Notes under the pieces: model-generated | Databases searched by the model: none | Told to the model about the DNA's origin: nothing | What the model saw: the letters and a program-made list of their open reading frames with translations, nothing else | Part shown: in pieces, positions 534-41,970 of the stretch | How positions within the stretch are numbered: position 1 is the first letter of the stretch | How the letters are laid out: every line of letters begins with the position of its first letter | Assembly (NCBI GenBank): GCA_044446745.1 | Contig: JBIOFE010000001.1 | Coordinates: forward strand, 44,759 to 108,758 | Direction of reading: 5' to 3' | Source: Acidimicrobiales bacterium | GTDB taxonomy: Bacteria; Actinomycetota; Acidimicrobiia; Acidimicrobiales; RAAP-2 | Length of the DNA stretch: 64,000 nucleotides | Program-made: the position numbers and the translations under genes

Positions 534-1387
534 CACCGGACCTTCTCTGCCGCTTGCACGGCGTTGCGCAACAGCATGGCACGGGTCATGGGGCCGACGC
601 CGCCGAGGCGTGGCGTGACCCAGGCGGCCACGTCGGCCACCTCGTCGGCGACGTCGCTGAGCAGCTTGCGCCCGGCCCAACTGGTGCCCGCCGCGACCAC
701 GGCGGCCCCCGGCCGGACCATGTCGGGCGTGACGAGCCCGGCCACGCCGGCCGCCGCCACGAGCACGTCGCCCTGGCGCGTCAGCGCGCCGAGGTCGGCG
801 ACGCCGGTGTGCACGACGGTGACCGCGGCGTTGCAGCCCGGGCGTTTCAACGCGAGCAGCAGCGCCAGCGGGCGCCCGATGGTGACGCCCCGCCCGATGA
901 TGACGACGTGGCGGCCCTCGACGGGCACCTCGTAGAAGCGCAGGAGCTCGACGATGCCCGCCGGCGTGCACGGCAGGGGCCCGGGGGCGCCCATCACCAG
1001 GCGACCGAGGTTGGTGGGGTGCAGACCGTCGACGTCCTTCGCCGGGTCGACGCGAACCAGCACCTCCGCCTCGTTCATCCCGGCCGGCAGGGGCAGCTGG
1101 ACCAGGATCGACTGGACGCGCGGGTCGGTGTTGAAGCGGTCGACGACGGCCTCCACCTCGGCCTGGGTCGCGGTCGCGGGCAGGTGCTCGTTGAAGGTGA
1201 CCACGCCGATCTCGGCGCAGTCGCGCTGCTTCATCGCCACGTAGGTCGCGCTGGGTCCGTCGTCGCCCACCAGCAGCGTGCCCAGCCCGACCGGCCGGCC
1301 GTCGGCGGCGAGGCGCGCCGCCCGATCGGCCAGCTCCATCTTCACGCGGGCCGCCACGACCTCGCCGTCGAGCAGGGATGCGGGCAC
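533..1387 (-). CDS. folD: Bifunctional methylenetetrahydrofolate dehydrogenase/cyclohydrolase
   Basis: LLDGE...LVGDDGPSATYVAMK, ILVQLPLP, KDVDGLHP, PCTPAGI, TPRLGGVGPMTRAML. AGGAG upstream of the GTG. Confidence 0.96.
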   Translation of the reverse strand: MPASLLDGEVVAARVKMELADRAARLAADGRPVGLGTLLVGDDGPSATYVAMKQRDCAEIGVVTFNEHLPATATQAEVEAVVDRFNTDPRVQSILVQLPLPAGMNEAEVLVRVDPAKDVDGLHPTNLGRLVMGAPGPLPCTPAGIVELLRFYEVPVEGRHVVIIGRGVTIGRPLALLLALKRPGCNAAVTVVHTGVADLGALTRQGDVLVAAAGVAGLVTPDMVRPGAAVVAAGTSWAGRKLLSDVADEVADVAAWVTPRLGGVGPMTRAMLLRNAVQAAEKVR

Positions 1388-1395
1388 GAGTTCTC

Positions 1396-2934
1396 CTAGT
1401 GGCGGAAGTGACGTTCGCCGGTCAGCAACATGACGATACCCGCGGCGTTGGCGGCCTCGATGATCTGCGCGTCGCGCACCGAGCCGCCCGGCTGCACGAC
1501 CGCCGACACGCCGGCGGCGATGAGCGATTGGAGCCCGTCGGCGAACGGGAAGAAGGCGTCCGACGCGGCGGCCGCGCCCTGGGCCGCGCCGCCGGCCTTG
1601 GCGGTCGCCAACTCCGCCGCGACGACGCGCGACTGCTGGCCGGCCCCCACGCCGACGGCGACGCCGGCGCGCGCCAGTACCACGGCGTTGGAGGTCGTGC
1701 GCGCGCAGACCCGCCAGGCGACCTGGAGGTCGCGGAGCTCACCGGGGGTGGGCGATCGGTCGGTGACGCAGCGCCACTGGCTGACCGGCGCGAGCAGCTC
1801 GTCGGCGCTCTGGACCAGCGCGGTGTCGCCCAGCGTGCGCACCGACCGGCCCAGCGGCTCGGGCGCCGGGGCGCTGAGCAGCCGGGTGGCCCGGCGTCGG
1901 GCTACTAGGACCTCGAGGGCGTCCGGCGTGAAGGAGGACGCGATGACCACGTCGGCCTGGGGCCCCGCGGCGATCAGCTCGGCCAACGCCCGGTCGACGT
2001 CGCCCCCGACGGCGACCACGCCGCCGAAGGCGCTCAGCGGGTCGGCGGCCAGAGCCCCGGTGAACGCGTCGGCCAGCGTCGAGGCCACGGCCGCACCCGC
2101 GGCGTTGGCGTGCTTGATGATGGCCGCGGCCGCGTCGTCCGGCGCGTCGCCGGCCAGCTCGTGGACCAGGCGCCACGCGGCGTCGGCGTCGAAGAGGTTG
2201 AGGTAGCTCAACGCGGTGCCGGCGTGCTGGACCACGCCGTCCCACCACGGGGTCGTCCCGGCCAGGCGGTAGCGCGCGCCGACCTGGTGGGGGTTCTCGC
2301 CGTAGCGCACGACCTCGGCGAGTTCCAACTCCAGGTGCAGCGAGGCCGGCAGGACAGCCTCGAGCGGCTCGGGCGCCGCGGCCGCCCCGCCGGCGTCGAG
2401 CCAGCGCGCGATCTGCGCGTCGTAGGCCGCGGTGGCCGCGAAGGCCACCCGGGCCAGCTCGTGGCGCGTCGCCTCACTCAGCGCGCCCGACGCCCGCAAT
2501 TCGTCGAGCACGCCCGCGTACTGGCTCGGACGGGTGACGACGCCGACGTGCCGGTGGTTCTTGGCCGCGGCGCGCACCATCGTCGGCCCGCCGACGTCGA
2601 TGAGCTCGATCGAGGGGTCCGACGAGAACGGGTAGAGGTTGCAGACCACCAGGTCGATCGTGGTGATCCCGTGCTCGGCCAGGGCGCCGAGGTGGTCGGG
2701 GTCGTCGCGGTCGGCCAGGATGCCCGCGTGCACCACCGGGTGCAGCGTCTTGACGCGGCCCCCGAGCATCTCGGGAAAGCCCGTGACGTCCGCGACGTCG
2801 AGGTGCGCGACGCCGGCCGCGCTCAGCGCGCGGGCCGTGCCGCCCGAGGCGATCAGCTCGACGCCCAGCGCGGCCAGCCCCGTGGCGAACTCGACCAGCC
2901 CGGTCTTGTCCCAGACGCTGATGAGCGCGCGCAC
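1396..2934 (-). CDS. purH: Bifunctional AICAR transformylase/IMP cyclohydrolase
   Basis: RALISVWDKTG, GGRVKTLHP, IDVGGPTMVRAAAKNH, YGENPHQ, IIKHAN, ASDAFFPFADG, QPGGSVRD, RHFRH. Confidence 0.97.
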   Translation of the reverse strand: MRALISVWDKTGLVEFATGLAALGVELIASGGTARALSAAGVAHLDVADVTGFPEMLGGRVKTLHPVVHAGILADRDDPDHLGALAEHGITTIDLVVCNLYPFSSDPSIELIDVGGPTMVRAAAKNHRHVGVVTRPSQYAGVLDELRASGALSEATRHELARVAFAATAAYDAQIARWLDAGGAAAAPEPLEAVLPASLHLELELAEVVRYGENPHQVGARYRLAGTTPWWDGVVQHAGTALSYLNLFDADAAWRLVHELAGDAPDDAAAAIIKHANAAGAAVASTLADAFTGALAADPLSAFGGVVAVGGDVDRALAELIAAGPQADVVIASSFTPDALEVLVARRRATRLLSAPAPEPLGRSVRTLGDTALVQSADELLAPVSQWRCVTDRSPTPGELRDLQVAWRVCARTTSNAVVLARAGVAVGVGAGQQSRVVAAELATAKAGGAAQGAAAASDAFFPFADGLQSLIAAGVSAVVQPGGSVRDAQIIEAANAAGIVMLLTGERHFRH

Positions 2935-3548
2935 TAGTCCTCCAGCGTCCCGGCCACCGAGACCGGTTCGCGGCCCTCGGCCAGGGCCGCCATCACCCTA
3001 CCGACGACGCGCGGGTAGAGGGAGCGCTCCACGGCCTTGATGCGCTCGTGCAGCGTCGCCTCGTCGTCGCCCGGCTCGACCGGCACGCGTCGCTGCGCCA
3101 AGAGCGGTCCGTCATCGAGCGCCTCGGTGGCCAGGTGCACCGTGCAGCCGGTCTCGGCCACGCCGGCGGCCAGCGCCTGCGCCACCGCGTGCCACCCCGG
3201 GAACGCCGGCAGGAGGCTCGGGTGGGTGTTGAGGACGCGCCCGGGAAAGGCGTCGTGCAAGCCCGCCGTGACGACGGTGCCGAAGCCCGCCATGGCGACC
3301 ACGTCGACGCGCCGGACCGCCAGCGCGGCCGTCAGCGCGGCGGTGTAGCCCGGGCGGTCGAAGTCCGCGGAGAAACCACCGAACTCGCGGCGGTCCACCA
3401 GCACGGCCTCCACGCCGGCGGCGCGGGCCACCTCCAGGCCGCGGCACGGTCGGTCGGCCGCGACCAGCGCCACCTCGAGCGAGGCGAGCAGCGACTCAAG
3501 GATCGTGCCGGACCCTGACACGAGGACGCAGAGACGCACCGGCTCCAA
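2934..3548 (-). CDS. purN: Phosphoribosylglycinamide formyltransferase
   Basis: LVSGSGT, LNTHPSLLPAFPG, GCTVH, LDDGP, LHERIKAVE. Confidence 0.95.
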   Translation of the reverse strand: MEPVRLCVLVSGSGTILESLLASLEVALVAADRPCRGLEVARAAGVEAVLVDRREFGGFSADFDRPGYTAALTAALAVRRVDVVAMAGFGTVVTAGLHDAFPGRVLNTHPSLLPAFPGWHAVAQALAAGVAETGCTVHLATEALDDGPLLAQRRVPVEPGDDEATLHERIKAVERSLYPRVVGRVMAALAEGREPVSVAGTLED

Positions 3549-3552
3549 CGGT

Positions 3553-4437
3553 TCAGAGCGCCCGAACGATCTCGACCATCCTCTGTCCGGCCTCGGTGGG
3601 GTTCGCGCAGACGTGCACCCCGGCGCGGCTCAGCGCCTCCATCTTGGCCTGCGCGGTGCCCTTGGACCCCGAGATGATCGCGCCGGCGTGGCCCATCTTG
3701 CGCCCCGGCGGGGCCGTCACTCCGGCCACGTAGGCCACCACCGGCTTGGTCATGTGGCGCTGGATCCACTCCGCGGCCCGCTCCTCCTCCGAGCCGCCGA
3801 TCTCGCCGATCATCATCACGGCGCGGGTGTCGTCGTCGTCCTGGAACGCGCTCAGGCAGTCGATGAAGTTGGTCCCGGGCACCGGGTCGCCGCCGATGCC
3901 CACGCAGGTGGTCTGGCCCACGCCCTGCTGGCTCAGCTCGTGGAGGGCCTGGTAGGTGAGCGTGCCCGAGCGCGACACGATGCCGACCGGTCCCCCGGCG
4001 AGGGCGATGTCGCCCGAGGTGATGCCGATGTTGCACTTGCCCGGGCTGATGATGCCCGGGCAGTTGGGGCCGAGCAGGCGCACGCCGGGGTGCTCTTCGA
4101 CCAGCCGGTTGTAGGTGAGCGCCTCGTCGTGGGCCGGGATCCCCTCGGTGATGCACACGATGAAGGTGACGCCGCCCGCGGCCGCCTCGAGGATCGCCGC
4201 CGGGGCGAAGCGCGGCGGCACCGCCACGAACGACGCCGTGGCCCCGGTGGACGCGACCGCCTCGCGCACCGAGTCGTAGACCGCGACGCCGTCGACGTCG
4301 GTGCCCCCCTTGCCCGGCGTGACCCCGGCCACGACCTGGGTCCCGTAGTCGCGGTTGCGAAGTCCGTGGAAGCGGCCCTGGCTTCCCGTGAGCCCCTGGA
4401 CGATGACCCTGGTGCCCGCGTCGACGAAGATGCTCAT
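3553..4437 (-). CDS. sucD: Succinyl-CoA synthetase alpha subunit
   Basis: VIVQGLTGSQG, GPNCPGII, SRSGTLTYQ, GIGGDP, MGHAGAII (phospho-His). Confidence 0.97.
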   Translation of the reverse strand: MSIFVDAGTRVIVQGLTGSQGRFHGLRNRDYGTQVVAGVTPGKGGTDVDGVAVYDSVREAVASTGATASFVAVPPRFAPAAILEAAAGGVTFIVCITEGIPAHDEALTYNRLVEEHPGVRLLGPNCPGIISPGKCNIGITSGDIALAGGPVGIVSRSGTLTYQALHELSQQGVGQTTCVGIGGDPVPGTNFIDCLSAFQDDDDTRAVMMIGEIGGSEEERAAEWIQRHMTKPVVAYVAGVTAPPGRKMGHAGAIISGSKGTAQAKMEALSRAGVHVCANPTEAGQRMVEIVRAL

Positions 4438-5588
4438 CGCGGCGCCGCCTCGCCCGCCAGGGCGACCGCCCGACGCGCCGCGTCGAGCATCGTCGACTCG
4501 GTGATGAGCGACGCCGACTGGTGGGGCGCGAGGATCGCCCGGCCGGCCTCGGCGTTGGTGCCGTCGAGGCGCAGCACGATCGGCGAGGCGATGGCCACGC
4601 GGCCCAGCGCCTCAAGCACACCCTGGGCCACCTCGTCGACGCGCGTGATGCCCCCGAAGATGTTGACCAGGATCGACTTGACTTTGGGGTCGGTGTTGAT
4701 GACCTCGAGCGCCGAGGCCATCACGTCGGCGTTGGCGCCCCCGCCGATGTCGAGGAAGTTGGCGGCCCGCCCGCCGACCTGGTTGACGACGTCCAGGGTC
4801 GACATCGCCAGGCCCGCGCCGTTCGCGATGATCCCCACCGTGCCATCCAGTCCGATGTAGTTGAGGCCGCGCTCCTTGGCCATGCGCTCTCGCGGGTCCT
4901 CGGTCTCGGTGGCGCGGTACTCCTCCCACTCGGGGTGGCGGAAGGACGCGTTTTCGTCCAGGGTGACCTTGGCGTCCAGCGCGTGGACCGTGCCGTCGGG
5001 GGTGAGGATCAGCGGGTTGACCTCGGCCAGGTCGCAGTCGCCCTCGGTGTAGCAGCGGTACAGCTTGACCAGGAGCTCGGCGGCCTGGTCGCGCGCCGCC
5101 TCGTCCAGGCCCGCCTCGGCGACCCAGCGGCGCGCCGTGGCCACGTCGAGCCCGCGCACCGGGTCGATCTGGAGGAAGGCAATGGCGTCGGGGTCCTCCT
5201 CGGCCACCACCTCGATCTCGACCCCGCCCTGGGCGCTCAGCATCCCCAGGTACGTCTTGTTGGGCCGGTCCAGGGTGAAGCTGGCGTAGTACTCGCGCGC
5301 GATGTCGCTGGCGTGCTCCACCCACAGGCGGCGCACCACGTGGCCCTTGATGTCCAGGCCCAGGATGGCGCCGGCGTGGCGGCGCACCTCGTCGAGGTCG
5401 CCGGCGAGCTTCACCCCGCCCGCCTTGCCGCGTCCGCCCACCTTGACCTGGGCCTTCACGACCACCGGCAGGCCGACGCGCTGCGCGACGGCGAGCGCTT
5501 CGTCGACCGTGTCGGCGACGCCCCCGGGGGAGATCGCGATCCCGTAGCGCGCGAAGTACTGCTTGCCCTGGTACTCGAACAGATCCAT
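4434..5588 (-). CDS. sucC: Succinyl-CoA synthetase beta subunit
   Basis: Start reassigned to ATG 5588 (MDLFEYQGKQ). KAQVKVGGRGKAGGVK, AEVNPL, ANGAGLAMSTLD, NFLDIGGG, NIFGGITR. Confidence 0.97.
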   Translation of the reverse strand: MDLFEYQGKQYFARYGIAISPGGVADTVDEALAVAQRVGLPVVVKAQVKVGGRGKAGGVKLAGDLDEVRRHAGAILGLDIKGHVVRRLWVEHASDIAREYYASFTLDRPNKTYLGMLSAQGGVEIEVVAEEDPDAIAFLQIDPVRGLDVATARRWVAEAGLDEAARDQAAELLVKLYRCYTEGDCDLAEVNPLILTPDGTVHALDAKVTLDENASFRHPEWEEYRATETEDPRERMAKERGLNYIGLDGTVGIIANGAGLAMSTLDVVNQVGGRAANFLDIGGGANADVMASALEVINTDPKVKSILVNIFGGITRVDEVAQGVLEALGRVAIASPIVLRLDGTNAEAGRAILAPHQSASLITESTMLDAARRAVALAGEAAPR

Positions 5589-5641
5589 CGTCGCTCTCTG
5601 CTTGGGGGTCCCGCGACAATCTACCGAACCCGCGAAGACCC

Positions 5642-6052
5642 CTACGATGCGGCCTCGCGCGCGTCGAGGGTGGCGGCCAGCCATTCGCCGATCTCGGTCA
5701 GCGACGCGCCCGGGGTGAAGACGCGCGCCACGCCCGCCGCGGCCAGCGGCGCCCGGTCGTCGTCGGGGATGATGCCCCCGACCACCACCAGCACGTCGTC
5801 ACGCCCGGCGCCGGCGAGCAACTCGATCACCCGGGGCACCAGGACTCGGTGGGCCCCCGAGAGCAGGGACAGGCCGACGGCGTCGGCGTCCTCCTGGACC
5901 ACCGTCGCGACGATCTGCTCGGGGGTCTGGTGCAGCCCGGTGTAGACGACCTCGAAGCCGGCGTCGCGCAGGGCGCGCGCGATGACCTTGGCCCCCCGGT
6001 CGTGTCCGTCGAGGCCCGGTTTGGCGACGACGACACGGTAGGGACGCTTCAT
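5642..6052 (-). CDS. Cobalamin (B12)-binding domain protein, methylmalonyl-CoA mutase small-subunit type
   Basis: From ATG 6052: [34 protein letters not shown] (DxHxxG motif), [18 protein letters not shown]. Confidence 0.92.
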
Positions 6053-6142
6053 CGTCCCCTCAGCATAGGACCCGGTTGGCGGGCTTTTCGGGGCCGTCGC
6101 CGCGTCGGGAGGCCTCGAGGGCCGCGAGTAGCGTGGAATCTC

Positions 6143-7048
6143 GTGACGACGGCGTCGACCCCCGCGCGCGGTCCGGTCCGGGCCCTGGCCTCGGCGATGC
6201 GCCCGCGCCAGTGGATCAAGAACGGTCTCATCGGAGTGGCCCCCGCCGCGGCGGGCACGCTCACCCACGCCGACGTGCTGCGCCACACCGGGGCCGCGTT
6301 CCTCGCCTTCTGCGCCCTCTCCTCGGCCATCTACCTGGTCAACGACCTGCGCGACCTCGCGGGCGACCGTGAGCACCCCACCAAGCGCCACCGCGCCCTG
6401 GCCGCCAGCCAGCTGTCGGCGAGAGCGGCCAGCGCGGCGGCGGTGGCGCTAATCCTCGTCTCCTTCGCGATCCCCTTCGCCCTCTGGCACCCCCAGGGCC
6501 TGTTCCTGGTGCTCGGGCTCTACCTGGTCAACTCGCTGGCCTACTCCTTCTACGTCAAGAACATTGTGATCATGGAGCTGGTCTCGGTGGCCTCGGGCTT
6601 CTTCCTGCGCGCCTACGCCGGCGCCGCGGCGTCGCACATCTTCGTCTCCACTTGGTTCCTCGTGGTCATCTCCTTCGGCGCGCTGTTCCTGGTGGTCGGC
6701 AAGCGATCGTCGGAGCTGGAGCGGGTGGGCGCGGGCATCACGCGGCGCGTGCTGGGCGAGTACACGCGCGACTTCCTCCACTCGGTCCTCACGCTGAGCG
6801 CGGCGGTCGTGGTGACCTGCTACTGCCTGTGGGCCTTCGACACCTCGGCCACCGGCCTGTCCTCGGCCCACCACTACATCGTCCCGATCCGCCTGTCGGT
6901 GGTGCCCGTCGTGATCGCCGTGCTGTTCATCATGCGCTCGGCCGAGGCCGGCAACGGCGCGGCGCCCGACGAGCTGCTCTATCACGACCGCGTGGTCCAG
7001 GGGCTCGTCGTCGTGTGGGGCGTGCTGTTGATGGTCGGGATCTACTGA
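6143..7048 (+). CDS. ubiA: Decaprenyl-phosphate phosphoribosyltransferase (UbiA family, Rv3806c-like)
   Basis: [30 protein letters not shown] and multiple TM segments. Start uncertain (GTG 6143 or ATG 6197). Confidence 0.88.
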
Positions 7049-37025: not shown

Positions 37026-37402
37026 TACTTGGTGACCTTCTTCTTGCCGGCGACGGTGCGCTTGGGACCCTTGCGGGTGCGCGCGTTGGTGCGAGTGCGC
37101 TGGCCGCGAACCGGCAGCCCCTTGCGGTGACGGATCCCCTGGAGGCAGTTGATCTCCATCTTGCGCTTGATGTCCTGGGCCACGTCGCGCCGCAGGTCAC
37201 CCTCGACGGTGACGTTCTGGTCGATGTAGGTGCGCAGCTTGTTCACCTCGGACTCGGTGAGGTCCTTGACGCGGGTCGACTCGTCGACGCCCGTCACCGC
37301 GCAGACCTGCTGGGCGATGGTGGGGCCGACCCCGAAGATGTAGGTGAGCGCGATGACGACGCGCTTGTCACGCGGGATGTCGACGCCGGCGATGCGGGCC
37401 AT
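37025..37402 (-). CDS. rpsM: 30S ribosomal protein S13
   Basis: [43 protein letters not shown]. Confidence 0.98.
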
Positions 37403-37410
37403 TCTTCCTC

Positions 37411-37524
37411 CTAGCCCTGACGCTGCTTGTGGCGCGGGTTCTCACAGATCACGCGGACGTGGCCGGCCCGTCGGATCACCTTGCACTTCTCACACATTGT
37501 CTTGACGCTGGCGCGAACCTTCAT
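37411..37524 (-). CDS. rpmJ: 50S ribosomal protein L36 (Zn-binding form)
   Basis: Not in the ORF track. Manual translation [37 protein letters not shown] (37 aa). Confidence 0.97.
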
Positions 37525-37551
37525 TGTCGAACTTTCTTCGTAGAACCGGAG

Positions 37552-37776
37552 CTACTTGTAGCGGTAGGTGATGCGTCCACGGGTCATGTCGTAGGGCGTG
37601 ATCTCCACCTGCACCTTGTCCCCGGGCAGGATGCGAATGCGGTGCATCCGCATCTTCCCGGAGCTGTGGGCGAGGACGGTGTACCCGTTCTCCAGCTCCA
37701 CGCGGAACATGGCGTTGGGCAGTGGCTCGACGACGGTCCCCTCGACGGTGAACGCGTCTTCCTTAGGCTTGCTCAG
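37552..37776 (-). CDS. infA: Translation initiation factor IF-1, apparent CTG start
   Basis: [75 protein letters not shown] lies 7 nt before the in-frame CTG at 37776. Confidence 0.95.
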
Positions 37777-37865
37777 GTTCTGTCTCCTTGTTAGGCACTG
37801 CGGGCGTGGTGGAGCACGGCTCCGCCACGGATGGACCCTCGGACACGCCAAGAGGTCGGCCGACC

Positions 37866-37944
37866 ATTCTACCCCTTTTCCGCGTCAGCGCAAAAGTCGG
37901 CGGGATCGGGGCGACCATGAGAGCCCGAGCAGGGTGCCAGTGTA
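37866..37944 (-). promoter_or_regulatory. Two predicted tandem promoters for infA-rpmJ-alpha cluster
   Basis: TTGCGC-N16-TAGAAT (37893-37866) and an upstream -10 TACACT (37944-37939). Confidence 0.55.
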
Positions 37945-37978
37945 CCGGTCCCGGCCCAAATCGCATCAGCGAGCGCCC

Positions 37979-38233
37979 TCAGCGACTCTGGTGGCGCTCC
38001 TGGCGACGGCCCGAACCCTTGGACCTGCCGGCCCACCGAGTCGCGCCGGCGTTCCACGAACTGTCCGGACGCGGCTTGGCGGCGGGCGCGAGCGGACGGG
38101 CCTTCTCGCCCTCGGCCGTGGCCTCGGCGCCGTCCGACTCGTTCGGGGCCTGGTCGGTGGCGACGGCCTCGCCCTCGGTCCCGGCCCCGCGGGTCCGGGG
38201 AGTCACGCGCCCTCGCTTCGCACCCTTCTTCAC
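37979..38233 (-). CDS. Hypothetical 84-aa protein with basic termini and an acidic/Ala-rich middle
   Basis: TAGCGT-N7-GTG leaderless-type start at 38233. GC3-rich codons. MKKGAKRGRVTPRTR...WNAGATRWAGRSKGSGRRQERHQSR. Hidden inside a long shadow ORF in the track. Confidence 0.6.
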   Translation of the reverse strand: MKKGAKRGRVTPRTRGAGTEGEAVATDQAPNESDGAEATAEGEKARPLAPAAKPRPDSSWNAGATRWAGRSKGSGRRQERHQSR

Positions 38234-38315
38234 GTCCCCGACGCTAACCGCGTGGCGCCGCACCCGCTCGCCGGGCCCCGCGAAACCCGGCCGTACCACC
38301 GGGCGACGCGGCCAA

Positions 38316-38335
38316 GTTGTGACTGGCGGCCCTAG
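38316..38335. promoter_or_regulatory. Candidate DosR/DevR-type binding site
   Basis: gttGTGACtggcGGCCCtag versus the DosR core GGGAC-N4-GTCCC (8/10). Centred about 43 nt before ATG 38369. Confidence 0.4.
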
Positions 38336-38368
38336 CCGGTCTCCGGCGGGCCCGGCGAGGCTGACCTC

Positions 38369-38761
38369 ATGGGCGATCTGGGCAACGTGCGACGCGAGAC
38401 CCTTTCTCGCTCCGCGTGCGTCGCGCGACTCGCCGAGGCGGACCTGGCGCGCGTCGTGATCTCCGTCCGCTGCTTGCCCGCCGCGCTGCCGGCGCGCGTC
38501 GCGGTGGTCGACGACCAGCACCTCCTCCTGGCCAGCCCGGAGGAGGCGGTCGTCACCGCGGCCGATCGGGCCGAGGTGCTCTCGGTCCAGGTCGACGGCC
38601 TCGAGCCCGACGGGGCCACCTGGTCGGTCATGGCCTCGGGGATCGCGCGCACGGTGGCGACCGACGCCGCCCTCAACGACCGGCTCCGCGACGCGGTGGC
38701 CCGGGGCGCGACGATCGTGGAGCTGCCGCTCAGCGTCGTGGTGGGCGAGCGGGTCGGTTAG
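38369..38761 (+). CDS. Pyridoxamine 5'-phosphate oxidase-like (split-barrel flavin-binding) protein
   Basis: TLSRSACVARLAEADLARV...LPAALP...VLSVQVDG...WSVMASG fits the LSRxECxxLL...GRV..LP...FEVD...WSV pattern of actinobacterial proteins found beside Dos-type two-component systems. Confidence 0.7.
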   Translation: MGDLGNVRRETLSRSACVARLAEADLARVVISVRCLPAALPARVAVVDDQHLLLASPEEAVVTAADRAEVLSVQVDGLEPDGATWSVMASGIARTVATDAALNDRLRDAVARGATIVELPLSVVVGERVG

Positions 38762-38794
38762 ACCCTCGCGGCGCGCTGTGCCAGGCTGGTCGCG

Positions 38795-39931
38795 ATGGTC
38801 TTCCACCAGATCCGGGACCCCGAACGGCTCCACGCGCTGATCCGGGCCCTGCTGCTCATCGAGGTCGACACCGACCTCGACGACCTGTTGACCACCATCG
38901 TCGCCGCATCGGTGCAGATGGTCGGCGCGCGGTACGGGGCGCTCGGCGTCCTCTCCCGGGACGGTCAGTCCCTGTCGCGCTTCATCACCCAGGGGATCGA
39001 CGACCGGACCCGCCAGGCCATCGGGGCGCTGCCCTGCGGCGAGGGCGTCCTGGGCGAGGTCATCGAGCGCCGGACGGCCCTGCGCCTCGAGGACCTGACC
39101 ACCTACCCGGGCTTCCGGGGCTTCCCCAAGCACCACCCGCCGATGTACCGCTTCCTGGGGGCGCCGGTGGAGACCGGCGACGGACGCGTCTTCGGCAACA
39201 TCTACCTCACCGACCCGCTGGACGACGAGCCCTTCGACGAGGAGGACGAGATCCTGGTGGAGTCCTTCGGGCGCGCCGCCGGCATCGTGATCGACCAGGC
39301 GCAGCTGCGGGCCCAGCTGCGCGATCTCACGCTGTCCGAGGAGCGCGAGCGCCTGGCCCGCGACCTGCACGACACGGTGATCCAGCGGCTGTTCGGCGTC
39401 GGACTGTCGCTGCAGATCGCGCTGGGCCTCGAGATGGACGACGCCGTGCGCGAGCGCATCAACCACTGCGTGGACGAGCTCGACGTCACCCTCCGCGACA
39501 TCCGCACGACGATCTTCGAGATCGACCAGGACGACGACGAGAGCGGCTCGCCCAGCGAACGGGTCGAGGCGCTGGCGGACGAGGTGCGCTCACGCCTGGG
39601 CATCGAGGTCGCGGTCGAGATGCCGGCCGACTTCGACCGCCTGGTGTCCGCCCACAGCGCGCACCACGCCGTGCAGGCCCTGCGCGAGGCGCTGTCCAAC
39701 GTGGCGCGCCACTCGCGGGCTCGCGCGGCGCGCGTGACCGTCGCGGTGGACGACGACCTGGTGATCCTCACCGTGGCCGACGACGGCGTGGGCTTCTCCT
39801 CCGCCGCGGGCCCCGGGCGGGGCCTGCGCAACCTGAGCGCCCGGGCCGCCCAAATGGGCGGCTCCTTCGAGGTCGAAGCCGCGCCGGGACATGGCACACT
39901 GGTGCGATGGACCGCCCAACGACAGGCGTGA
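38795..39931 (+). CDS. GAF-domain sensor histidine kinase (DosS/DosT-like, HisKA_3 + HATPase)
   Basis: YGALGV, GFPKHHPPM..FLGAP, FGNIYLTD, ERERLARDLHDTVIQRLF (H-box), EALSNVARH, VADDGVG, GRGLRNL. Confidence 0.92.
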   Translation: MVFHQIRDPERLHALIRALLLIEVDTDLDDLLTTIVAASVQMVGARYGALGVLSRDGQSLSRFITQGIDDRTRQAIGALPCGEGVLGEVIERRTALRLEDLTTYPGFRGFPKHHPPMYRFLGAPVETGDGRVFGNIYLTDPLDDEPFDEEDEILVESFGRAAGIVIDQAQLRAQLRDLTLSEERERLARDLHDTVIQRLFGVGLSLQIALGLEMDDAVRERINHCVDELDVTLRDIRTTIFEIDQDDDESGSPSERVEALADEVRSRLGIEVAVEMPADFDRLVSAHSAHHAVQALREALSNVARHSRARAARVTVAVDDDLVILTVADDGVGFSSAAGPGRGLRNLSARAAQMGGSFEVEAAPGHGTLVRWTAQRQA

Positions 39932-39932
39932 C

Positions 39933-40577
39933 GTGATCCGCCTCCTGCTGGTCGACGACCACGAAATCGTGCGGCGCGGACTCAAGGAGCTCCTCGACGC
40001 CGCCGGCGACCTCGAGGTCGTCGCCGAGGCCAGCACGATGGCCGAGGCCGAGGCCGTCGACCTCGACCTCATCGACGTCGCGGTGCTCGACGTGCGCCTG
40101 CCCGACGGCAGCGGCGTCGACCTGTGTCGGACCCTGCGCGACCAGCGCGCCGACCTGGCCTGCCTGATGCTGACCAGCTTCGCCGACGCCGAGGCGCTCA
40201 ACGCCTCGGTGCTCGCCGGGGCCCGGGGCTACGTGCTCAAGAACGTGCGCGGGGACGAGCTGGTCCGGTCGATCCGGCGCGTGGCCAACGGCGAGATGCT
40301 CCTCACCGAGGAGCAGGTCAATCGGGCGCGCGAGCGACTGCGCCGCCAGATGGTCGAGGACCTGCGCCTGGAGAGCCTGAGCACCCAGGAGCGGCGCATC
40401 CTCGAGCTGCTGAGCGAGGGGCTCTCCAACCGCGAGATCGCCGCGGAGATGTTCCTGGCTGAGAAGACGGTGAAGAACTACGTCTCCAACCTGCTGGCCA
40501 AGCTGGGCTTCCAACGGCGCACCGAAGCCGCGCTCTTCGCCCAGCGCCAGCTCGACCGCAAGCACCCGCCGACCTAG
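39933..40577 (+). CDS. NarL/LuxR-family response regulator (DevR/DosR-like)
   Basis: From GTG 39933: IRLLLVDDHEIVRRGL, VLDVRLPDGSG, LMLTSF, GYVLKN, LSNREIAAEMFLAEKTVKNYVSNLLAKLG..RRTEAA. Confidence 0.92.
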   Translation: MIRLLLVDDHEIVRRGLKELLDAAGDLEVVAEASTMAEAEAVDLDLIDVAVLDVRLPDGSGVDLCRTLRDQRADLACLMLTSFADAEALNASVLAGARGYVLKNVRGDELVRSIRRVANGEMLLTEEQVNRARERLRRQMVEDLRLESLSTQERRILELLSEGLSNREIAAEMFLAEKTVKNYVSNLLAKLGFQRRTEAALFAQRQLDRKHPPT

Positions 40578-41314
40578 GCGGAGGTGAAGACCTCGGGCCC
40601 GTCGTCGGTCACGGCGATGGTGTGCTCGAAGTGGGCCGAGAGCGAGCCGTCGCGGGTCAGCACCGACCAGCCGTCGTCGAGCAGGTAGGTCTCGGCCAGG
40701 CCCGCGTTGACCATCGGCTCGACGGCGAAGACCATGCCCTCCTTGAGCGTCGGCCCGGGCGTGCCCGGCCAGTAGTTGGGCACCTGGGGGCTCTCGTGCA
40801 TGGCGGTGCCGATGGCGTGACCCACGTACTCGCGCACCACCGAGAAGCCGGCCGCCTCGGCCACGCGCTGGACCGCCCGGCCGATCTCGTGGAGCCGCCG
40901 ACCCACGACCATCTGGTCGATCCCCGCCCACAGCGAGCGCTCGGTCACCTCGATGAGCCGGCGCGCCAGGTCGCTCACCTCGCCCACCGGGGCGGTGTAG
41001 GCGGCGTCGCCGTGGTAGCCCTCGACGATCGCCCCGCAGTCCACCGAGATGATGTCGCCGTCGCGCAGCACGCAGTCGCCCGGGATGCCGTGGACGATCA
41101 TGTCGTTGGGGCTGGTGCAGATCACGGCCGGGAAGCCGTGGTAGTTGAGGAAGTTGGAGCGCGCCCCGCGCCGCTCGAGCACCTCGGCGGCCACCTCGTT
41201 GAGCCGGGCGGTGGTGACCCCGGGGCGGATCGCCGCGCGGGTCGCCTCGTGCATCTCGGCGACCACCCGGCCGGCCCGGCGCATCTTGGCCAGCTCGTCG
41301 GGCGAACGCCTCAC
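40574..41314 (-). CDS. map: Methionine aminopeptidase type I
   Basis: From GTG 41314: ICTSPND.IVHGIP, DIISVDCG, YHGDAA, YVGHAIG..MHESP, AVEPM, SAHFEHT. Confidence 0.96.
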   Translation of the reverse strand: MRRSPDELAKMRRAGRVVAEMHEATRAAIRPGVTTARLNEVAAEVLERRGARSNFLNYHGFPAVICTSPNDMIVHGIPGDCVLRDGDIISVDCGAIVEGYHGDAAYTAPVGEVSDLARRLIEVTERSLWAGIDQMVVGRRLHEIGRAVQRVAEAAGFSVVREYVGHAIGTAMHESPQVPNYWPGTPGPTLKEGMVFAVEPMVNAGLAETYLLDDGWSVLTRDGSLSAHFEHTIAVTDDGPEVFTSA

Positions 41315-41970
41315 GCCAGGCCCCGGGCGCCGAGGGCGGCCACGATGGACGCGGTCACCTCGTCGGGCGCCCGGTCGCCGTCGACGGTGACCAGCACGCC
41401 GCGCTCGCGGTAGAAGTCGAGCAGCGGCGCGGTGTCGCGCTCGTAGGTCTCGAGGCGCCGGCGGATGGCCTCGGGCTGGTCGTCGGCGCGCTGGACGACG
41501 TGACCGCCGCACTTGGCGCACACGCCGGAGACGGCCGCGGGGTCGGTGTCGCGGTAGATCGTCCCGCAGTCCTGGCACACGCGCCGCGAGGACAGCCGGG
41601 CGGTCGCCCGCTCGTTGGCGATCTCCAGGTTGACGCACAGCGACACGCCGGCGATGCCCAGCAGCTCCTCGAGGGCCTCGGCCTGGGCCGCGTTGCGCGG
41701 GAACCCGTCCAGCAGCGCCCCGGCGGCGGCGTCGGGGTCGGCGAAGCGCTCCTCGACCAGCCGGATGACCAGGGCGTCGGAGACCAGCACCCCGGCCTCG
41801 AGCCGAGCGGCGACCTCGCGGCCGAGCGCGGTGCCGGCCTGGACCGCCGCACGCAGCATGTCGCCGGTCGAGACGTGCGGGATGGCGTAGCGCGCGCCCA
41901 GGCGGTCGCACTGGGTCCCCTTGCCCGCGCCCTGCTTGCCGAGGACCACCAGATAGAGGGGCGCCGCCAT
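41311..41970 (-). CDS. adk: Adenylate kinase (Zn-lid, 4 Cys)
   Basis: From ATG 41970: LGKQGAGKGTQ, HVSTGDMLR, LDGFPRN, CQDC...CAKC, QRADD. Confidence 0.96.
   Translation of the reverse strand: MAAPLYLVVLGKQGAGKGTQCDRLGARYAIPHVSTGDMLRAAVQAGTALGREVAARLEAGVLVSDALVIRLVEERFADPDAAAGALLDGFPRNAAQAEALEELLGIAGVSLCVNLEIANERATARLSSRRVCQDCGTIYRDTDPAAVSGVCAKCGGHVVQRADDQPEAIRRRLETYERDTAPLLDFYRERGVLVTVDGDRAPDEVTASIVAALGARGLA

What the first reader, a model, noticed from the sequence alone, without database searches (positions are those of the whole stretch)
37979..40577. DosT/DosR-like dormancy module inserted antisense inside the spc-alpha ribosomal cluster (possible non-contiguous operon or excludon)
Seen: the normally adjacent map and infA genes are separated by about 2.8 kb. 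A plus-strand PNPOx-like/GAF kinase/response-regulator operon fills most of the gap. The regulator stop overlaps the map stop (shared CTAG at 40574-40577), leaving no intergenic room for a terminator. Established: secY-adk-map-infA is an ancestral co-transcribed run, and DosRS-type systems govern hypoxia/dormancy in actinobacteria. Inference: the very abundant rplC-to-map transcript would read straight into the regulator and kinase as antisense RNA. Growth would then silence the dormancy switch, and its induction could in turn interfere with map/secY expression, a layout-encoded growth/dormancy toggle.
Basis: partly seen in the sequence, partly recalled or inferred. Interest (0 to 1): 0.72.

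Follow-up and report, generated by a model that had tools for sequence, protein, structure and literature searches.

The report
Oxygen-sensor operon wedged between ribosomal operons
A genuine DosS/DosR-type oxygen/redox sensing operon sits backwards between the map and infA genes of the ribosomal gene cluster in this Acidimicrobiia genome and about 15 related species. It lies at a boundary between two separately promoted units that collects other insertions too, and nothing yet shows that the layout acts as a growth/dormancy switch.

Summary
The map stop and the infA start are 2,797 nt apart. A plus-strand PNPOx-like / GAF kinase / response-regulator operon (38369-40577) fills most of that gap. 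The regulator and map stop codons share CTAG at 40574-40577.

The module's identity is strongly supported:
- The kinase GAF domain matches the DosT/DevS heme domain (E 7e-40).
- The regulator matches full-length DevR (E 1e-59), with an identical DNA-reading helix.
- Thirteen species share a DosR/OsdR-type box, a -10 element and a leaderless start upstream of the operon.

The layout is not a misassembly. It recurs in about 15 congeners.

Comparative evidence weakens the "inside an operon / excludon" reading:
- infA has its own conserved promoter and leader, also present in congeners that lack the insertion.
- The same gap holds cydABDC, a cobalamin cluster or nothing in other species. One species has deleted the module.
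- The 4-nt convergent stop overlap is the commonest convergent layout genome-wide (48 of 252 pairs).

Sequence shows no terminator after map, so antisense read-through remains possible but untested.

Verdict: an ordinary inherited insertion of a single-GAF DosRS variant at an operon boundary. The toggle idea stays a low-probability hypothesis.

The parts
37552..37776 (-). infA (IF-1), first gene of the infA-rpmJ-rpsM-rpsK-rpsD-rpoA-rplQ unit; apparent CTG start at 37776-37774 after AAGGAG
   Evidence: PF01176, E 4.9e-27. 97-100% identical in most congeners. The CTG context is conserved in relatives.
37866..37893 (-). Predicted infA promoter: -35 TTGCGC (37893-37888), 16-nt spacer, -10 TAGAAT (37871-37866). 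It is followed by a leader of about 90 nt with a hairpin.
   Evidence: Conserved in all insertion-bearing relatives and in congeners without the insertion, G005, G009, G010 and G015. It is a consensus match; no transcription start site data exist.
37979..38233 (-). Species-specific small ORF (84 aa, basic/acidic/basic) between the infA promoter and the sensor operon promoter; not part of the Dos-like operon
   Evidence: GC3 is 0.90 and the codon-position pattern fits the minus strand. No Pfam match. No orthologue at this site in 24 congeners.
38319..38335 (+). DosR/OsdR-type box GTGAC-TGGC-GGCCC-TAG, centred at -43.5 relative to the ATG if the mRNA is leaderless
   Evidence: GAC, G-CC and TA are invariant across 13 species, with fixed spacing (alignment A1). 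It resembles the DevR GGGACT half-sites (PMC3177182) and the OsdR consensus AGGGCCGATCGGCCCT (PMC5069765). It is the top PWM hit in the genome, but that matrix included this site.
38357..38362 (+). Predicted -10 hexamer GAGGCT (nAnnnT), 6 nt before the ATG at 38369, implying a leaderless transcript
   Evidence: The A at position 2 and T at position 6 are invariant. The 21-nt distance from the box and the 6-7 nt distance to the start codon are conserved in 13 species.
38369..38761 (+). PNPOx-like (Pyridox_ox_2) protein, 130 aa, first gene of the operon
   Evidence: PF12900, E 5.6e-10, above the gathering score. Orthologues (41-69% identity) occupy the same position in every insertion-bearing relative examined.
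38795..39931 (+). Single-GAF DosS/DosT-like heme sensor histidine kinase, 378 aa (GAF 26-167, HisKA_3 183-244, HATPase_c 291-374)
   Evidence: Pfam domains. The GAF domain matches DosT GAF-A 2vzw at E 7e-40 and DevS 2w3d at E 4e-34, with the HHPPM and YLTD motifs retained. The ATP-binding domain matches DosT 3zxq and DevS 3zxo.
39891..40577 (+). DosR/DevR-like NarL-family response regulator, 228 aa; start overlaps the kinase end by 41 nt
   Evidence: REC + GerE domains. Full-length DevR 3c3w matches at E 1.3e-59; the next best is VraR at 2e-34. DVAVLDVRLPDG and FLAEKTVKNYVS are identical to DevR.
40574..40577 (.). CTAG shared by the convergent stop codons of the regulator (TAG 40575-40577) and map (reverse complement of 40574-40576)
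   Evidence: Read directly from the sequence. The same overlap occurs in G003, G013, G014, G020, G023 and G024. This 4-nt type accounts for 48 of 252 convergent pairs genome-wide.
40574..41314 (-). map (methionine aminopeptidase), last gene of the rplC...secY-adk-map run
   Evidence: PF00557, E 6.5e-54. 75-86% identical in congeners.

Best explanation
The module is a genuine DosS/T-DosR-type two-component operon of three genes: a PNPOx-like protein, a single-GAF heme kinase and a DevR-like regulator.

Its most likely mechanism is as follows. The heme GAF domain senses O2, NO, CO or redox state. The kinase phosphorylates the regulator. The regulator binds a DosR-type box centred near -43.5 of its own leaderless promoter, giving positive autoregulation. 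It also binds similar boxes elsewhere; predicted targets include an Hsp20 gene and a DUF1918 gene.

Its position is an inherited insertion at the seam between two separately promoted ribosomal transcription units: ...secY-adk-map, and infA-rpmJ-rpsM-rpsK-rpsD-rpoA-rplQ. In this genus that seam is a permissive hot spot. The tail-to-tail stop overlap with map reflects the genome's general compaction, not a dedicated device. Any antisense read-through from map is probably incidental and handled as at the many other overlapping convergent pairs.

Shown here: domain identities, box and promoter conservation, synteny, and the overlap statistics. Inferred: heme binding, the signal sensed, autoregulation, the leaderless start, and the neutrality of the placement.
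For: Identity. The DosT/DevS GAF-A domain matches at E 7e-40. DevR matches at E 1e-59, with an identical recognition helix and phospho-acceptor context.

Promoter and box: searches cover 13 species. The invariant positions are exactly the half-site cores, the A2 and T6 of the -10 element, and the start codon. The geometry compares with the -42.5 primary Dev box of tgs1 and the GGGACT contacts in PMC3177182, and with the OsdR consensus in PMC5069765.

Hypoxia link: in G007 cydA and cydB (Pfam), followed by two ABC-transporter-like ORFs (read as cydD/C by eye), follow the regulator on the same strand.

Independent infA promoter.

Hot spot and dispensability:
- G006 has a 20-kb cobalamin cluster in the gap.
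- G015 has 3 kb of other sequence and G009 has 1 kb.
- G022 deleted the module but keeps 369 nt of its upstream region at 86% identity to G021.
- G005, G010 and five other families have map and infA 128-482 nt apart.

Overlap is common: 79 of 252 convergent pairs overlap, and 48 of them by exactly 4 nt.

The composition of the module equals that of its flanks, so it is not a recent foreign arrival.
Against: No expression data could be obtained. Sequence shows no intrinsic terminator and no C-rich, G-poor stretch after map on the minus strand, so substantial antisense transcription into the regulator cannot be excluded.

The module has stayed convergent with the spc unit in every species that has it. 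However, this is one inherited event, not independent replicates.

Only one box was found. Mycobacterial DevR promoters usually need two boxes (PMC3177182).

The gene calls behind the overlap statistic come from a crude GC3-based caller that missed some genes, including map itself.
Confidence: 0.62

Rival explanations
1. Excludon-like toggle. Abundant spc-operon transcription runs past map into the regulator and kinase as antisense RNA, so fast growth silences the Dos-like switch. Induction of the switch in turn interferes with map and secY expression.
For: The stops overlap and there is no intergenic space. No intrinsic terminator or rut-like signal follows map. Convergent orientation with the spc unit is retained in all roughly 15 species that carry the module. 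Direct adjacency with a 4-nt overlap or a 9-18 nt spacer occurs in 9 of the 13 species whose junction could be read.
Against: The same 4-nt overlap is the commonest convergent layout genome-wide, so it does not single out this pair. In G002, G007, G011 and G012 other genes lie between the regulator and map. G022 lost the module without other change to the locus. Orientation is inherited from a single event. An untranslated antisense RNA of 2.2 kb would be a natural Rho substrate (general knowledge of actinobacterial transcription, not tested here). No RNA data were available.
Confidence: 0.13
2. Non-contiguous operon. secY-adk-map and infA-rpmJ... remain one transcript that spans the oppositely oriented module, so infA and alpha-operon expression depends on read-through across 2.8 kb.
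For: Co-transcription of the spc and alpha regions is known in Bacillus (established knowledge). No terminator was detected after map.
Against: A conserved sigma-A-type promoter and leader lie directly upstream of infA in species with and without the insertion. The gap tolerates 0.13-20 kb of varied content. In at least ten of the other families sampled in the order no map copy lies next to infA.
Confidence: 0.05
3. Divergent-promoter coupling. The DosR-like regulator bound at its box also modulates the neighbouring infA/alpha-operon promoter, tying translation-factor and ribosomal-protein output to oxygen status.
For: In most relatives the box lies only about 60 nt beyond the infA -35 element, in a shared divergent region of 215-240 nt. 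DevR is known to drive divergent promoters such as tgs1-Rv3131 (PMC3177182).
Against: In this window an extra 350 nt or so, holding a small ORF, separates the two promoters. In G008, 3.6 kb intervene. The box centre would lie near -100 relative to the infA start. No second box was found near infA.
Confidence: 0.06

Closest known systems
DosS (DevS) / DosT - DosR (DevR) of Mycobacterium tuberculosis
   Same: The heme-type GAF-A domain retains the HHPPM and YLTD motifs. The kinase has a HisKA_3 + HATPase_c core. The NarL-family regulator is closest to DevR, with an identical DNA-reading helix. A palindrome-like box with G-GAC / G-CCC half-sites 4 nt apart overlaps the -35 region of its own operon.
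   Different: The kinase has one GAF domain and 378 aa, against two GAF domains and about 575 aa. Gene order is PNPOx-like, kinase, regulator, against Rv3134c-devR-devS. The left half-site is mostly GTGAC. Only one box was detected. The start is predicted to be leaderless. The module sits between map and infA.
OsdK/OsdR (SCO0203/0204) of Streptomyces coelicolor
   Same: This is a DevRS-type system in a non-mycobacterial actinobacterium. The right half of the box here (GGCCCT) is identical to the OsdR consensus half-site AGGGCC/GGCCCT (PMC5069765).
   Different: Kinase architecture and genomic context differ. The OsdR regulon lies in a stress island, not in a ribosomal cluster.
Excludons and non-contiguous operons (Listeria, Staphylococcus)
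   Same: Oppositely oriented neighbouring units whose transcripts could overlap.
   Different: No overlapping transcript has been shown here. The defining mutual exclusion is untested, and the layout is variable among relatives.
Split spc | alpha ribosomal clusters in other Actinobacteria (for example M. tuberculosis, where mapA and infA lie in different loci; from my own knowledge)
   Same: The map|infA seam behaves as an operon boundary that can be opened.
   Different: Here the two units stay only 2.8 kb apart, with a sensor operon between them.

Membership tests
DosS/DosT (DevS) heme sensor kinases | GAF-A domain with the heme pocket (proximal His in the HHPPM-type motif, distal Tyr in the YLT motif) | tested here: met
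   residues 28-173 align to DosT 2vzw (E 7e-40) and DevS 2w3d (E 4e-34). GFPKHHPPMYRFLGAPV and FGNIYLTD align to the DosT and DevS motifs. Residue roles come from my recollection of the DosS/DosT structures.
DosS/DosT (DevS) heme sensor kinases | Second, tandem GAF-B domain | tested here: not met
   a single GAF domain (26-167) is followed directly by HisKA_3 (183-244). The total is 378 aa. Two-GAF relatives give matches of about 1570 nt, against about 1100 nt here.
DosS/DosT (DevS) heme sensor kinases | HisKA_3 phospho-acceptor domain plus HATPase_c | tested here: met
   (PF07730, PF02518). (DosT 3zxq and DevS 3zxo ATP-binding domains).
DosS/DosT (DevS) heme sensor kinases | Binds heme and responds to O2, NO or CO | not testable with these tools
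   Requires spectroscopy and autophosphorylation assays.
DosR/DevR regulators (NarL/LuxR family) | REC + GerE HTH domains, with DevR as the closest characterised relative | tested here: met
   3c3w at E 1.3e-59 over residues 16-227; the next family member is at 2e-34.
DosR/DevR regulators (NarL/LuxR family) | Conserved phospho-acceptor Asp context and DNA-contact helix | tested here: met
   DVAVLDVRLPDG and FLAEKTVKNYVS are identical to DevR.
DosR/DevR regulators (NarL/LuxR family) | Binds GGGACT-type inverted repeats upstream of target genes, including its own operon | tested here: inconclusive
   A box conserved in 13 species sits at a fixed distance from the -10 element. Only one box was found, the left half is mostly GTGAC, and there is no binding assay.
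Excludon | Overlapping transcripts from oppositely oriented neighbours | not testable with these tools
Terminator and rut scans found nothing, which neither shows nor excludes overlap.
Excludon | Mutually exclusive expression with functional consequence | not testable with these tools
   Needs condition-resolved, strand-specific RNA data and mutants.
Non-contiguous operon | Flanking genes depend on one transcript that spans the antisense gene(s) | tested here: inconclusive
   The conserved infA-proximal promoter and leader argue against dependence, but transcripts were not observed.

The most novel reading that the evidence does not exclude
Read-through from the highly expressed spc ribosomal operon past map produces a long antisense RNA over the DosR-like regulator and kinase. 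Growth rate would then directly gate an oxygen/dormancy switch. This would be a layout-encoded excludon conserved across a clade of Acidimicrobiia.
Probability: 0.12. Interest if true: 0.7.

Novelty: new variant of a known kind. Interest (0 to 1): 0.3.

Why it matters
The result extends DosRS-type heme sensing to small-genome, uncultured Acidimicrobiia. It defines a compact single-GAF form with a co-operonic PNPOx-like gene and a predicted autoregulatory box. These give concrete, testable parts: heme binding, box binding, and a small predicted regulon that includes Hsp20.

It also shows that the map|infA seam of the ribosomal supercluster is an insertion hot spot in this genus, holding the sensor operon, cydABDC or a cobalamin cluster in different species. 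That tempers any reading of genes found there as being inside an operon.

If the antisense-toggle idea were true, it would be a neat example of growth-rate information being wired into a stress switch by gene layout alone. The present evidence does not favour it.

Tried and rejected
- Exact-protein look-up of the kinase found no contig on record.
- Rfam scan of 37300-41500: nothing above the gathering score. There was only a weak Alpha_RBS hit at 37370-37420.
- Promoter/terminator consensus scan: zero sites. It misses the infA promoter because TTGCGC matches only 3 of 6 positions of TTGACA.
- Folding the minus strand after map gave z = -0.93 in the window. Comparable stretches in 15 genomes gave no outstanding hairpins.
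- Search for a C>G "bubble" as a Rho-site proxy: fewer such windows than the background.
- The genome-contig scan with the kinase returned only distant relatives (27-48% identity). None was next to infA or map.
- PDB sequence search with the PNPOx-like protein gave only spurious hits to designed PPR repeats.
- A symmetric half-site matrix scan of the window was built one base out of register. It still found only the operon's own box and is not used further.
- I considered that the regulator controls infA through the shared divergent region. I rated this low because the spacing is not conserved.
- I considered a recent horizontal arrival. I rejected it because composition and GC3 equal those of the flanks, and the orthologues have diverged to 50-62% identity in place.
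Full report
**1. What is there**

ORF listing, Pfam and a codon-position GC plot give a clear map. The minus strand carries ...rplO, secY, adk and map (40574-41314). Further down it carries infA (37552-37776), rpmJ, rpsM, rpsK, rpsD, rpoA, rplQ and truA.

Between map and infA lie 2,797 nt. Most of this is a plus-strand run of three genes:
- a 130-aa Pyridox_ox_2 (PNPOx-like) protein, 38369-38761;
- a 378-aa GAF-HisKA_3-HATPase_c kinase, 38795-39931;
- a 228-aa REC-GerE regulator, 39891-40577, whose start overlaps the kinase end by 41 nt.

The regulator's TAG (40575-40577) and map's TAG (reverse complement of 40574-40576) share CTAG.

It is the stop of a separate small minus-strand ORF (37979-38233). 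That ORF has good GC3 (0.90) and a minus-strand codon pattern. It has no Pfam match and no orthologue at this site in 24 congeners.

**2. Is the module DosT/DosR-like? Yes, by sequence**

- The GAF domain aligns over its full length to the heme-binding GAF-A domain of DosT (2vzw, E 7e-40) and of DevS (2w3d, E 4e-34).
- The motifs GFPKHHPPM...FLGAPV and FGNIYLTD are kept. From my recollection of those structures, they hold the proximal His and the distal Tyr.
- The C-terminal half matches the DosT and DevS ATP-binding domains.
- The regulator's best solved relative is full-length DevR (3c3w, E 1.3e-59). The next NarL-family member scores 2e-34.
- The acceptor context DVAVLDVRLPDG and the DNA-reading stretch FLAEKTVKNYVS are identical to DevR.

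One defining feature of DosS/DosT is not met. There is only one GAF domain and no room for a second. Single-GAF forms of similar length occur in other Acidimicrobiia and in some Chloroflexota genomes. Micromonospora, Arthrobacter and Streptomyces relatives have the two-GAF length. I therefore file it as a single-GAF variant of the DosRS kind.

**3. Promoter anatomy from comparison**

I aligned the region upstream of the first gene from 13 species (alignment A1). The invariant positions are:
- the GAC of a left half-site;
- G-CC of a right half-site 4 nt away, followed by TA;
- the A and T of an nAnnnT hexamer exactly 21 nt further on.

The TG of the start codon, 6-7 nt after the hexamer, is conserved in at least 90% of the sequences.

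In the window these elements are GTGAC-TGGC-GGCCC-TAG (38319-38335), GAGGCT (38357-38362) and ATG (38369). Six nucleotides between a -10 element and the start codon leave no room for a leader. The mRNA is therefore most likely leaderless, which puts the box centre at -43.5.

Three species have canonical TTGGGAC or TTTGGGAC left halves (G008, G014) or TTTGAGAC (G021). The geometry matches what is known of this regulator family:
- DevR contacts G4G5G6A7C8T9 in each half-site, and the tgs1 primary box is at -42.5 (PMC3177182).
- The Streptomyces OsdR consensus is AGGGCCGATCGGCCCT (PMC5069765), whose right half is identical to the one here.

The inference is positive autoregulation, as for Rv3134c-devRS. 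The caveat is that only one box is evident, whereas mycobacterial promoters usually use two.

A matrix built from the 13 boxes finds further candidates in this genome. They lie upstream of an Hsp20/alpha-crystallin gene (C39:11273), a DUF1918 gene (C1:39508, with a near-canonical GGGAC-TTCC-GTCCC box) and an SRPBCC gene (C42:13316). These are predictions only.

Flavin-binding proteins (Fsq, Acg) are DosR-controlled in mycobacteria (PMC13494985). This is an analogy for the PNPOx-like first gene, not a demonstrated relationship.

**4. Is the layout real and conserved?**

The window is G000:C1:44759-108758. Searching the kinase, infA and map in 40 relatives, plus tblastn on fetched loci, gives the following.

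*Species with the module.* The same three-gene module, antisense between map and infA, occurs in G002, G003, G007, G012, G013, G014, G019, G020, G021, G023 and G024. It is consistent with the partial contigs of G008, G011, G016 and G017. Kinase orthologues are 50-62% identical, regulators 61-84%, map 75-86% and infA 85-100%. This excludes misassembly and shows an old insertion.

*Congeners without the module in the gap.*
- G005, G010 and G022 have map and infA 444-482 nt apart.
- G009 has 1.06 kb between them and G015 has 3.0 kb of other sequence.
- G006 has about 20 kb carrying cobalamin-synthesis and transport genes.

*G022 lost the module.* It retains 369 nt of the module's upstream region, including the box and promoter, at 86% identity to its sister G021. 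It lacks the genes and has no such kinase anywhere. This is a clear secondary deletion.

*The wider order.* Five other families of the order have map-infA gaps of 128-470 nt. In at least ten other families no map copy lies next to infA.

*The kinase elsewhere.* Congeners that lack the module in the gap carry a kinase about 40% identical at another location. There it pairs with a divergently oriented regulator and has no PNPOx-like gene.

**5. Is it inside an operon?**

Directly upstream of infA is a strong sigma-A-like promoter: TTGCGC-N16-TAGAAT, -10 at 37871-37866. A leader of about 90 nt follows, with a hairpin and an AAGGAG ribosome-binding site.

The promoter and leader are conserved in all insertion-bearing species. 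They are also conserved in G005, G009, G010 and G015, which lack the module. TAnnnT-type elements also precede infA in the other families.

So in this lineage the infA...rplQ unit has its own promoter, and that promoter predates the insertion. The module landed at the seam between two transcription units.

**6. Is the shared CTAG special?**

I used a crude GC3-based gene call of the whole genome (1,481 genes). It is incomplete and even misses map itself. In that set, 79 of 252 convergent neighbours overlap, and 48 overlap by exactly the 4-nt [CT]TA[AG] type seen here. This is the commonest convergent layout in the genome.

The same overlap with map re-forms when a different gene abuts it: a Peripla_BP_2 gene in G002 and the last ABC-transporter ORF of the cyd cluster in G007.

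The regulator-map junction itself varies among species:
- a 4-nt overlap in seven species;
- 9-18 nt spacers in two species;
- other genes in between in four species.

In G007 the intervening genes are cydA and cydB (Pfam) followed by two ABC-transporter-like ORFs, on the regulator's strand. This fits an oxygen-related role for the module.

**7. Does transcription from map run into the module?**

This could not be tested.

Sequence gives no intrinsic terminator and no unusually stable fold after map (z = -0.93). No outstanding hairpins appear in 15 genomes with or without the insertion. There is no C-rich, G-poor stretch on the minus strand.

It applies equally to dozens of other overlapping convergent pairs in this genome. 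Untranslated antisense RNA is the classic substrate of Rho, but that is general knowledge and was not tested here.

**8. Verdict**

The identity of the module is well supported and modestly new: a single-GAF DosRS variant with a PNPOx-like partner, a leaderless autoregulated promoter, and a first description in this lineage.

The position is best explained as an inherited insertion at a permissive operon boundary. The excludon or non-contiguous-operon reading is neither excluded nor favoured. I give the toggle about 12-13%. Interest is moderate to low.

Noticed in passing
window 37774-37789: infA appears to start at CTG, 7 nt after AAGGAG. The same SD-N7-CTG-(A/T)(G/C)N-AAG context is present in congeners and in other families of the order (sequences printed).
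   Followed up: partly
window 37777-37865 (minus strand): The conserved infA 5' leader of about 90 nt contains a hairpin (GTGGNGGAGC...GCTCCNCCAC type) retained across the genus. It could be a regulatory leader. There is no Rfam match.
   Followed up: no
window 37979-38233 (minus strand): An 84-aa ORF with strong GC3 bias and a basic/acidic/basic composition. It is specific to this species: congeners have a 215-240 nt infA-PNPOx spacer instead of 596 nt.
   Followed up: partly
L055 (G007:C73:89000-98500), 898-6640: cydA and cydB (cytochrome bd oxidase, Pfam), then two ABC-transporter-like ORFs (likely cydD/C), follow the DosR-like regulator on the same strand. The last of them overlaps the map stop by 4 nt.
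   Followed up: partly
L073 (G006:C1:1338500-1358400): The roughly 20-kb map-infA gap of this congener carries cobalamin-synthesis-like and ABC-transport genes. They were named by eye from the translations and not confirmed with Pfam.
   Followed up: no
L063 (G022:C1:7300-8900) versus L070 (G021): G022 keeps the box, the -10 element and the first codons of the PNPOx-like gene (369 nt, 86% identical to G021). It has lost the three genes, which looks like a recent clean deletion.
   Followed up: yes
genome contigs C39:11273, C1:39508, C42:13316, C12:4029 (outside the window): DosR-type boxes lie upstream of an Hsp20/alpha-crystallin gene, a DUF1918 gene, an SRPBCC gene and a second NarL-type regulator-kinase pair. 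These are candidate regulon members.
   Followed up: partly
whole genome G000: About a third of convergent gene pairs overlap at their stops, most by the 4-nt [CT]TA[AG] form. This points to very tight packing and raises the question of how transcription ends genome-wide.
   Followed up: partly
L058 (G011) 4288-4843 and L056 (G012) 2780-3823: AT-richer spacers between the regulator and map appear to hold a small gene on the map strand, with its own upstream region. It was not identified.
   Followed up: no
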